From a virus (lineage: Duplodnaviria; Heunggongvirae; Uroviricota; Caudoviricetes), in the IMG/VR virus record IMGVR_UViG_2700989544_000010: a stretch of 17,037 nt of DNA, one strand, 5' to 3'. The first letter of the stretch is position 1. The number at the start of each line of letters is the position of its first letter. The notes under the pieces were generated by a model that was not told the DNA's origin, searched no databases, and saw only the letters and a program-made list of their open reading frames with translations. Below are positions 16,803 to 17,037 of the stretch, piece by piece. The translations under genes were made by a program, and so were the position numbers.

Positions 16803-16922
16803 ATGTCATCAAAGAACAGAACCCGCAGAACAACAACCCGCAACATCCGATTTCCAAACCAGATGATTGAACAAATTAACATCGCTCTTGATCTGAAAGG
16901 TTCAGGAAACTTTTCAGCGTGA
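16803..16922 (+). pseudogene. Small YlcI/DUF3950-like ORF truncated after codon 39 by the IS insertion
   Basis: ATG at 16803 with GGGGA 7 nt upstream. Translation MSSKNRTRRTTTRNIRFPNQMIEQINIALDLKGSGNFSA then TGA, where the TGA is the first three bases of the IS terminal repeat. It resembles my memory of the E. coli K-12 DLP12 prophage protein YlcI (about 64 aa), which continues past this point. Confidence 0.55.
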
Positions 16923-17037
16923 ACCGCCCCGGAAATCCTGGAGACTAAACTCCCTGAGAAAGAGGTAAACAGGATGACTAAAAATACTCGTTTTTCCCCC
17001 GAAGTCCGTCAGCGGGCGATTCGTATGGTTCTGGAAA
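16920..17037 (+). mobile_element. Left end of an IS3-family insertion sequence (IS629/IS1203-like), continuing beyond the right edge
   Basis: Terminal sequence TGAACCGCCCCGGAAATCCTGGAGACTAAACTCCCTGAGAAAGAGGTAAACAGG matches the remembered IS629 left inverted repeat and leader, followed by the orfA start. Confidence 0.8.
16974..17037 (+). CDS. IS3-family transposase OrfA (InsN-like), N-terminal fragment
   Basis: ATG at 16974 with AGAGG RBS. Translation MTKNTRFSPEVRQRAIRMVLE... is the characteristic N-terminus of IS629/IS1203 OrfA. The frame is open to the window edge. Confidence 0.8.
   Translation, partial: MTKNTRFSPEVRQRAIRMVLE

What the first reader, a model, noticed from the sequence alone, without database searches (positions are those of the whole stretch)
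16803..17037. IS629-like insertion truncates a small DUF3950/YlcI-like gene just outside cos
The small plus-strand ORF is cut at codon 39 exactly where the IS terminal repeat (TGAACCGCCCC...) begins, and the first three IS bases supply its stop codon. The insertion is about 316 bp from cosN, so the rest of the prophage right arm is displaced beyond the IS; the window cannot show whether it still follows or has been deleted or rearranged. The YlcI identification is from memory and should be treated as provisional.
Basis: partly seen in the sequence, partly recalled or inferred. Interest (0 to 1): 0.5.

Follow-up and report, generated by a model that had tools for sequence, protein, structure and literature searches.

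The report
IS629-type insertion cutting prophage ylcI
A common E. coli jumping gene (IS629/IS1203 type) has landed inside a small prophage gene of unknown function next to the phage packaging site of an already defective lambda-like prophage; this is an ordinary, well-known kind of event.

Summary

- **The gene.** ORF 16803-16922 (+) holds the first 39 codons of a YlcI/YnfO (DUF3950) gene. Intact copies are 61 aa or longer and continue with a conserved WVIEACRRRL.
- **The break.** Homology to the intact gene stops at 16921. From 16920 the window is 100% identical to the left end of the 1310-bp IS1203/IS629 element. The element's first three bases, TGA, supply the stop codon.
- **Position.** cosN lies at 16592-16603, with 316 bases between it and the IS.
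- **The window cannot be extended.** It is a complete 17,037-bp draft contig (GCA_001440575.1, LKDA01000069.1).
- **A sister genome answers the open question.** GCA_003015285.1 (4.4-Mb contig) carries the same prophage lineage, marked by a shared terminase nonsense mutation, and the same left junction. There the IS is full length and flanked by a 3-bp duplication, GCG. The rest of ylcI and the lysis genes follow directly.
- **A second allele exists.** In two other assemblies the IS is flipped at the same nucleotide, and 2.3 kb from ylcI to mid-lysozyme is deleted.

This is a routine IS insertion in a decaying prophage. Interest is low.

The parts
16803..16919 (+). Codons 1-39 of a YlcI/YnfO (DUF3950) gene: the 5' fragment left by the insertion
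   Evidence: ORF list. Pfam PF13132 at 32.9 bits. DNA identical to the intact gene of OkiPb01713 up to the junction. PHROG 949 E=1.8e-21.
16917..16919 (.). GCG, the 3-bp target sequence (left copy of the target-site duplication)
   Evidence: In sister locus L021 the IS is flanked by GCG on both sides. Removing the IS plus one GCG restores an intact ylcI. This is inferred for the window itself, where only the left copy is visible.
16920..16922 (+). TGA stop codon of the truncated ORF, formed by the first three bases of the IS left inverted repeat
   Evidence: The IS boundary is fixed by a complete copy with its duplication.
16920..16944 (+). Left terminal inverted repeat (IRL) of the IS629/IS1203-type element. 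It matches the right repeat at 22 of 25 positions, with the first 13 perfect.
   Evidence: Comparison of IRL and IRR in the full sister copy. 100% identity to IS1203 copies.
16920..17037 (+). First 118 bases of the IS (IRL, leader and start of orfA); the contig ends here
   Evidence: 100% identical to annotated IS1203 copies and to the first 118 bases of the full IS in L021.
16974..17036 (+). First 21 codons of the transposase orfA (MTKNTRFSPEVRQRAIRMVLE)
   Evidence: Weak Pfam HTH_Tnp_1 match, E=0.0041, below the cut-off because only 21 aa are present. Identical to the N-terminus of the 108-aa OrfA in L016. The 108-aa orfA product of L021 carries PF01527.
16592..16603 (-). cosN, the 12-base cohesive-end sequence identical to lambda's, 316 bases from the IS
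   Evidence: Read directly from the sequence. The lambda cos sequence is from my own knowledge. The flanking Nu1 gene carries PF07471.
15870..16481 (-). Terminase small subunit (Nu1-like) ORF; context for the cos assignment
   Evidence: ORF. PF07471 Phage_Nu1 on the same 203-aa product in the source contig.
13970..15898 (-). Terminase large subunit gene interrupted by a nonsense codon (Q376*, stop at 14771-14773). It is the lineage marker that links the window to the sister loci.

Best explanation
A 1310-bp IS3-family element of the IS629 group transposed into the small prophage gene ylcI, between codons 39 and 40, duplicating the 3-bp target GCG. Its visible end is the IS1203 isoform.

From established knowledge of the IS3 family, transposition is by copy-out/paste-in, using an OrfAB DDE transposase made by a programmed -1 frameshift.

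Because the element's terminal repeat starts with TGA, in frame with ylcI, the gene now ends after residue 39. It loses the conserved WVIEACRRRL segment, which covers most of the second predicted helix, so the product is most likely inactive (inferred).

ylcI lies just outside cos on the strand opposite the late genes. The 316 bases between cosN and the IS, and cosN itself, are untouched, so the packaging site should not be affected (inferred).

The prophage was already defective, with terminase large subunit Q376*, so the insertion is one more step in prophage decay.

Beyond the IS, the rest of ylcI and the lysis region most probably follow directly, as in the sister genome. The window is a complete draft contig that stops 118 bases into the repeat, so this is not shown for the window's own strain.
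For: **Truncation and junction:**

**Gene family:**. In the 22 full-length homologs aligned, the conserved core continues past residue 39.

**IS identity:**

**Source of the window:** it is the contig LKDA01000069.1, 17,037 bp.

**Sister locus L021** (GCA_003015285.1, 4.41-Mb contig):
- It matches window 11189-17037 through the junction, with only 6 mismatches, all clustered at an indel boundary.
- It shares the TerL Q376* marker.
- It holds a full 1310-bp IS with orfA (HTH_Tnp_1) and orfB (rve).
- Its right junction reads GGTTCA|GCG TGG GTT ATT.
- Removing the IS plus one GCG gives a ylcI identical in DNA to the intact reference.
- The right arm continues for at least 6 kb.

**Independent assemblies:** the same IRL-proximal junction occurs in three further draft assemblies, L022, L025 and L026.

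**Literature:** 62% of IS629 copies in O157:H7 lie in prophages, and IS629 makes 3-4 bp duplications (PMC3271280).
Against: - The window shows only 118 bases of the IS. Neither its full length, nor the second junction, nor the duplication is observed in this strain.
- A second allele in the same prophage lineage (L016, L024) has the IS flipped and 2.3 kb deleted. Rearrangement at this IS does therefore happen.
- No complete RefSeq E. coli genome holds either junction.
- Loss of YlcI function is inferred from conservation and a moderate-confidence model only. The function of YlcI is unknown.
Confidence: 0.88

Rival explanations
1. The left junction is as described, but in the window's own strain the DNA beyond the IS is not the rest of ylcI. 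The right arm would have been deleted, inverted or moved by a later IS-mediated event.
For: - Two assemblies of the same prophage lineage (L016, L024) carry a rearranged allele at this very nucleotide. In L016, 2.3 kb from ylcI codon 40 to mid-lysozyme is missing and there is no duplication.
- Only 21 of 47 IS629 sites in O157:H7 had matching duplications (PMC3271280).
Against: - The rearranged allele has the opposite IS end (IRR) next to ylcI.
- The window has the IRL end, like L021, where the arm is intact.
- The window matches L021 through the junction to its last base.
Confidence: 0.15
2. The junction is an assembly artefact: a chimeric join of a ylcI-ending contig to a repeated IS end.
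For: - The window is a short-read draft contig that ends in a repeat.
- ylcI itself is multi-copy, and draft contigs often break inside it.
Against: - The identical junction appears in five independent assemblies, including one 4.41-Mb contig that crosses the whole IS and shows a matching 3-bp duplication.
- IRL and IRR share only 13 perfect bases, too few to mislead an assembler.
Confidence: 0.02
3. The ORF ends here naturally and the IS merely lies downstream of a short gene.
For: None found.
Against: - Full-length homologs are 61-77 aa, and residues 40-46 (WVIEACR) are at least 90% conserved across the aligned set.
- Shorter database entries are annotated 'partial' because of contig ends.
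- Excising the IS in silico restores the 61-aa gene.
Confidence: 0.01

Closest known systems
IS629 and its isoform IS1203 (IS3 family) in prophages of enterohaemorrhagic E. coli
   Same: - Terminal repeat TGAACCGCCCCGG.
- 100% identity of the visible 118 bases to annotated IS1203 copies.
- In the sister copy: 1310 bp, orfA/orfB organisation and a 3-bp duplication.
- Location in a lambdoid prophage, as for 62% of IS629 copies in O157:H7.
   Different: - This particular site (ylcI codon 39/40) is absent from all 5,426 complete RefSeq E. coli genomes searched.
- The full sister copy is a mosaic. Bases 1-520 are identical to the IS1203 reference copy, and there are 50 differences in 521-1283.
ylcI of the K-12 DLP12 prophage (and ynfO of Qin): DUF3950 genes next to nohD/cos
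   Same: - Same family (Pfam PF13132, NCBIfam NF041551).
- Same position, beside the Nu1-type small terminase gene and on the opposite strand (gene named in PMC12844343).
   Different: Here the gene is cut after 39 of 61 codons. The variable C-terminal tail differs between family members. No function is known for any member.
Other IS629-family insertions around ylcI in lambdoid prophages
   Same: The same element family has inserted at other positions in the same few hundred bases:
- 161, 202 and 336 bases after the ylcI start codon (L018, L019, L020).
- A 438-bp IS remnant 104 bases upstream of ylcI; 121 complete genomes gave a full-coverage match of this kind, of which one (L012) was inspected.
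   Different: Those are separate events at other nucleotides. Most leave ylcI intact or alter only its tail.
Stx phages of strains PA2 and PA8, which differ mainly by the position of an IS629 copy
   Same: An IS629 insertion within a lambdoid prophage acts as a strain-level structural difference (abstract of PMC10810198).
   Different: That case is reported to have a virulence phenotype. No phenotype is known or expected here, because the prophage already has a broken terminase gene.

Membership tests
IS3 family, IS629 group (isoform IS1203) | Terminal inverted repeats beginning with TG (ending in CA at the far end); about 25 bp, imperfect | tested here: met
   IRL is visible in the window (16920-16944). 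In the full sister copy, IRL and IRR match at 22 of 25 positions, the first 13 perfectly. IRR is not visible in the window.
IS3 family, IS629 group (isoform IS1203) | Nucleotide identity to the named element at isoform level (about 95% or more) | tested here: met
   The 118 visible bases are 100% identical to copies annotated IS1203. The full sister copy is 96.2% identical to one such copy. Isoform status of IS1203 is from PMC3271280.
IS3 family, IS629 group (isoform IS1203) | orfA (helix-turn-helix) and orfB (DDE 'rve' domain), joined by a programmed -1 frameshift | tested here: inconclusive
   The window holds only 21 codons of orfA (HTH_Tnp_1 E=0.0041, below cut-off). The sister L021 has a 108-aa HTH_Tnp_1 product and a 295-aa rve product. 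RefSeq annotates 'programmed frameshift' on equivalent copies.
IS3 family, IS629 group (isoform IS1203) | 3-4 bp target-site duplication | not testable with these tools
   The contig ends inside the IS. In the sister locus with the identical left junction the duplication is GCG.
YlcI/YnfO family (DUF3950) | Match to Pfam PF13132 above the gathering score | tested here: met
   Fragment: 32.9 bits against 25. Intact homolog: 67.5 bits.
YlcI/YnfO family (DUF3950) | Match to NCBIfam NF041551 above its cut-off | tested here: inconclusive
   The fragment scores 18 bits, below the cut-off of 30, because it is truncated. The intact 61-aa gene, whose first 39 residues are those of the window fragment, scores 35.2.
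YlcI/YnfO family (DUF3950) | Full-length conserved core, to about residue 49 (...SAWVIEACRRRL) | tested here: not met
   The window copy stops at residue 39. It is a truncated copy of a family member, not a functional-length member.
Lambda-type cos site | 12-base cohesive-end sequence next to a Nu1-type small terminase gene | tested here: met
   16592-16603 is the reverse complement of GGGCGGCGACCT, and the flanks match both lambda ends (lambda sequence from my own knowledge). The Nu1 product carries PF07471. Cleavage was not tested.

The most novel reading that the evidence does not exclude
IS629-type elements may have nucleotide-precise preferred targets in lambdoid late regions, which published surveys did not detect. 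Two observations point this way.

- ylcI codon 39/40 carries the IS in both orientations within one prophage lineage.
- The lysozyme junction of the rearranged allele recurs, at the same nucleotide and with its own duplication (GAG), in an unrelated complete genome (ESDR8).

Both targets read TCA-NNN-TG, which resembles the abutted IS ends (TTCA-NNN-TGAA) of the transposition intermediate.

The evidence equally allows a single ancestral insertion in each gene, followed by local hopping, deletion between the like-oriented 13-bp IS tips, and spread by prophage recombination.
Probability: 0.12. Interest if true: 0.35.

Novelty: already known. Interest (0 to 1): 0.1.

Why it matters
It matters little on its own. 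IS629/IS1203 insertions in EHEC-type prophages are well documented and are used as strain markers. This junction, together with the linked terminase nonsense mutation, could serve as a lineage marker. It also explains why short-read assemblies break here. The gene that is lost has no known function, and the prophage was already unable to package DNA.

Tried and rejected
1. **Draft contigs as evidence for a hot spot.** I first read the 41 draft contigs that end at ylcI codon 39 as evidence for a recurrent insertion site. I rejected this. The database cluster holds 'partial' YlcI proteins of many lengths (35 aa on 209 contigs, 38 aa on 140, and so on), so contigs simply break throughout this multi-copy gene.

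2. **Pattern scans for the junctions.** The left junction was scanned in GTDB representative genomes and JGI metagenomes. The expected right junction was scanned in IMG/VR, GTDB representative genomes and JGI metagenomes. All gave nothing. The left-junction scan of IMG/VR gave four hits: three were chance matches of the 22-mer (L014, L015, L017) and one was real (L016).

3. **Complete RefSeq E. coli genomes.** Neither junction was found as one piece.

4. **A ribbon-helix-helix fold for YlcI.** The AlphaFold model shows two helices (residues 19-32 and 37-55) with pLDDT about 82 in the core. The supporting comparisons are all weak:
   - Foldseek against PDB gave only insignificant hits (E>5), although three of the five were ribbon-helix-helix proteins.
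   - The profile comparison with Arc gave E=0.02 at 2% probability; CopG gave nothing.
   - A PHROG HicB-like match had E=0.012.
   - A sequence search of PDB gave nothing.

   This is a lead only.

5. **A promoter for ylcI.** The consensus scan found no plus-strand promoter upstream.

6. **Homologous recombination as the cause of the flipped allele.** Recombination between two IS copies cannot flip the IS end at a fixed flank, by reasoning on the junctions. It was rejected as the sole explanation.

Full report
**What is in the window**

The last 1.2 kb of the window reads, left to right:
- a Nu1-type small terminase ORF on the minus strand (15870-16481);
- a lambda-type cos site;
- a small plus-strand ORF (16803-16922, 39 aa);
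- 118 bases that run to the end of the window.

The sequence CGAGGTCGCCGCCC at 16590-16603 is the reverse complement of the lambda left end GGGCGGCGACCTCG. The flanks match both lambda ends (the lambda sequence is from my own knowledge). cosN is therefore 16592-16603, and 316 bases separate it from position 16920.

**The small ORF is a truncated ylcI**

The 39-aa product matches Pfam DUF3950 above the gathering score (32.9 bits) and PHROG 949.

The closest complete genome, strain OkiPb01713, carries a prophage 99.6% identical to window 1-16921. At the same place it has a 61-aa gene annotated 'YlcI/YnfO family protein'.

The two DNAs are identical up to ...TTTTCAGCGTG and unrelated afterwards. 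The intact copy continues TGG GTT ATT (W V I); the window continues TGA ACC GCC.

Among 790 homologs found, full-length members are 61-77 aa. In the 22 I aligned, residues 40-46 (WVIEACR) are at least 90% conserved. Shorter database entries are annotated 'partial' and come from contig ends. The ORF therefore does not end here naturally.

**The terminal 118 bases are the left end of an IS629-type element**

Window 16920-17037 is 100% identical to many elements that RefSeq annotates as 'IS3-like element IS1203 family transposase'. One complete copy is 1310 bp. It starts with TGAACCGCCCCGG, ends with CCGGGGCGGTTCA, and is flanked by a 3-bp duplication.

This fixes the IS boundary in the window at 16920. 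The stop codon TGA of the truncated ORF is thus the first three bases of the IS. The ATG at 16974 opens orfA, and its 21 visible residues match the N-terminus of the IS's OrfA. IS1203 is treated in the literature as an isoform of IS629 (PMC3271280).

**The window cannot be extended, but a sister genome answers the open question**

No complete RefSeq E. coli genome holds this junction. Pattern scans for the left junction (GTDB representatives, JGI metagenomes) and for the expected right junction (IMG/VR, GTDB representatives, JGI metagenomes) found nothing useful.

While comparing the window with OkiPb01713, I found that the terminase large subunit gene carries a nonsense codon, Q376* (window 14773). 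Looking up that exact 375-aa product gave two decisive results.

1. *The source contig.* The window is a complete 17,037-bp draft contig, LKDA01000069.1 of GCA_001440575.1. It simply stops inside the repeat.

2. *A sister locus that crosses the IS.* L021 is a 4.41-Mb contig of GCA_003015285.1.
   - It carries the same prophage lineage.
   - It matches the window through the junction to the window's last base.
   - The IS there is full length, 1310 bp, with orfA (HTH_Tnp_1) and orfB (rve).
   - The far junction reads ...GGGGCGGTTCA|GCG TGG GTT ATT GAA..., so the target GCG is duplicated.
   - Removing the IS plus one GCG restores a ylcI identical in DNA to the intact reference.
   - The 46-aa gene, Rz, lysozyme, holin and further late-region genes follow for at least 6 kb.

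Three more draft assemblies (L022, L025, L026) show the same IRL-proximal junction.

**Mechanism and consequence**

*Shown:* an IS629-type element sits between codons 39 and 40 of ylcI. In the sister genome it has the 3-bp duplication typical of this element; PMC3271280 reports 3-4 bp.

*From established knowledge of the IS3 family:* insertion is by copy-out/paste-in, through a circular intermediate, using the frameshifted OrfAB transposase.

*Inferred:*
- The truncated YlcI is inactive. It lacks nearly all of the second predicted helix (model helices at 19-32 and 37-55, core pLDDT about 82) and the most conserved residues.
- cos function is untouched, because the insertion lies 316 bases outside cosN.
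- There is no polar effect. In intact relatives the next genes downstream of ylcI are on the other strand.
- The prophage could not package DNA anyway, because of the terminase nonsense mutation.

What YlcI does is unknown. The fold evidence for a ribbon-helix-helix DNA-binding protein is suggestive but not significant.

**A second allele at the same nucleotide**

An IMG/VR provirus (L016) and one draft contig (L024) belong to the same lineage. L016 shares the Q376* base at window position 14773, and L024 was retrieved by the exact 375-aa truncated TerL. In both, ylcI is cut at the same nucleotide, but the opposite IS end (IRR) abuts it.

In L016 the other IS end abuts codon ~94 of the lysozyme gene. 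There is no duplication, and 2.3 kb is missing. The IS is 1310/1310 identical to that of L021.

Homologous recombination between IS copies cannot change which IS end faces a fixed flank. The simplest account (inference) has three steps:
1. a local hop of the IS into the lysozyme gene, in inverted orientation;
2. loss of the original copy;
3. loss of the interval between them, by deletion between the two like-oriented 13-bp IS tips.

An independent insertion at the same nucleotide followed by an adjacent deletion is the alternative.

A complete genome, ESDR8, has an IS629-family copy at the same lysozyme nucleotide with its own duplication, GAG. That site has therefore been used as a simple insertion site.

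**Comparison with what is known, and verdict**

IS629/IS1203 insertions in lambdoid prophages of EHEC-type E. coli are common and documented (PMC3271280; the abstract of PMC10810198, seen). The neighbourhood of ylcI has been hit repeatedly, at several other positions.

This is one more instance, at a site not represented in complete RefSeq genomes. The finding is correct and ordinary. The only mildly unusual point is the reuse of identical nucleotides, which may or may not reflect target preference. A sample of seven junctions shows no clear consensus.

Noticed in passing
window 14771-14773 (within 13970-15898, minus strand): The terminase large subunit gene carries a nonsense codon (Q376*, CAG to TAG) relative to OkiPb01713. 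This splits it into 375-aa and 264-aa ORFs, so the prophage is packaging-defective. The exact 375-aa product is indexed in 85 blocks of public assemblies, so the defective lineage is widespread.
   Followed up: yes
window 11189-11226 (S49 peptidase/scaffold gene, ORF 10846-12201, minus strand): There is a 150-bp in-frame deletion relative to OkiPb01713, L002, L016 and L021 (451 aa against 501 aa). It is bounded by a 38-bp repeat. Among the relatives compared it is specific to the window's contig.
   Followed up: partly
L016 1892-3201 (IMGVR_UViG_2534681674_000020) and L024: A second allele exists in the same prophage lineage. The IS abuts ylcI at the same nucleotide but is flipped (IRR-proximal). 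In L016 its other end joins codon ~94 of the lysozyme gene, 2.3 kb is deleted and there is no duplication. L024 ends 79 bases into the IS, so only its junction is seen.
   Followed up: partly
L030 5089-6398 (NZ_CM169472.1, strain ESDR8): An IS629-family copy is inserted in a lysozyme gene at exactly the same nucleotide as the L016 lysozyme junction. It has its own 3-bp duplication (GAG), sits in a different prophage, and differs from the L016 IS at 25 of 1310 positions.
   Followed up: partly
L012 4002-4439; L018 2624-3933; L019 2665-3974; L020 2799-4108: IS629-family insertions recur around ylcI in other lambdoid prophages. In L012 a 438-bp IS remnant lies 104 bases upstream of an intact ylcI; 121 complete genomes gave a full-coverage match of this kind, but only L012 was inspected. 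Full copies lie 161, 202 and 336 bases after the ylcI start in three other genomes. Searches list further examples.
   Followed up: partly
L021 7670-8979 and L016 1892-3201: The IS at this site is a mosaic. Bases 1-520 are identical to an annotated IS1203 copy, and bases 521-1283 carry 50 differences. This suggests past recombination between IS629 subtypes.
   Followed up: partly
window 16594 and L001 6195: The window's cosN is identical to lambda's. The otherwise 99.6% identical prophage of OkiPb01713 has a substitution inside the 12-base cohesive end (C in place of the window's G).
   Followed up: no
window 1-17037: The window is an entire draft contig (GCA_001440575.1, LKDA01000069.1, reverse complement), so its right end is an assembly break inside a repeat. 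Three Logan contigs of the same lineage (L027-L029) instead break inside cosN.
   Followed up: partly
window 16803-16919 and homologs P0001-P0120: YlcI has the pattern of a ribbon-helix-helix protein: a short strand-like RNIRFP, a helix, GSGNFS, then a second helix. The AlphaFold model gives two helices. All fold and profile comparisons were below significance.
   Followed up: partly
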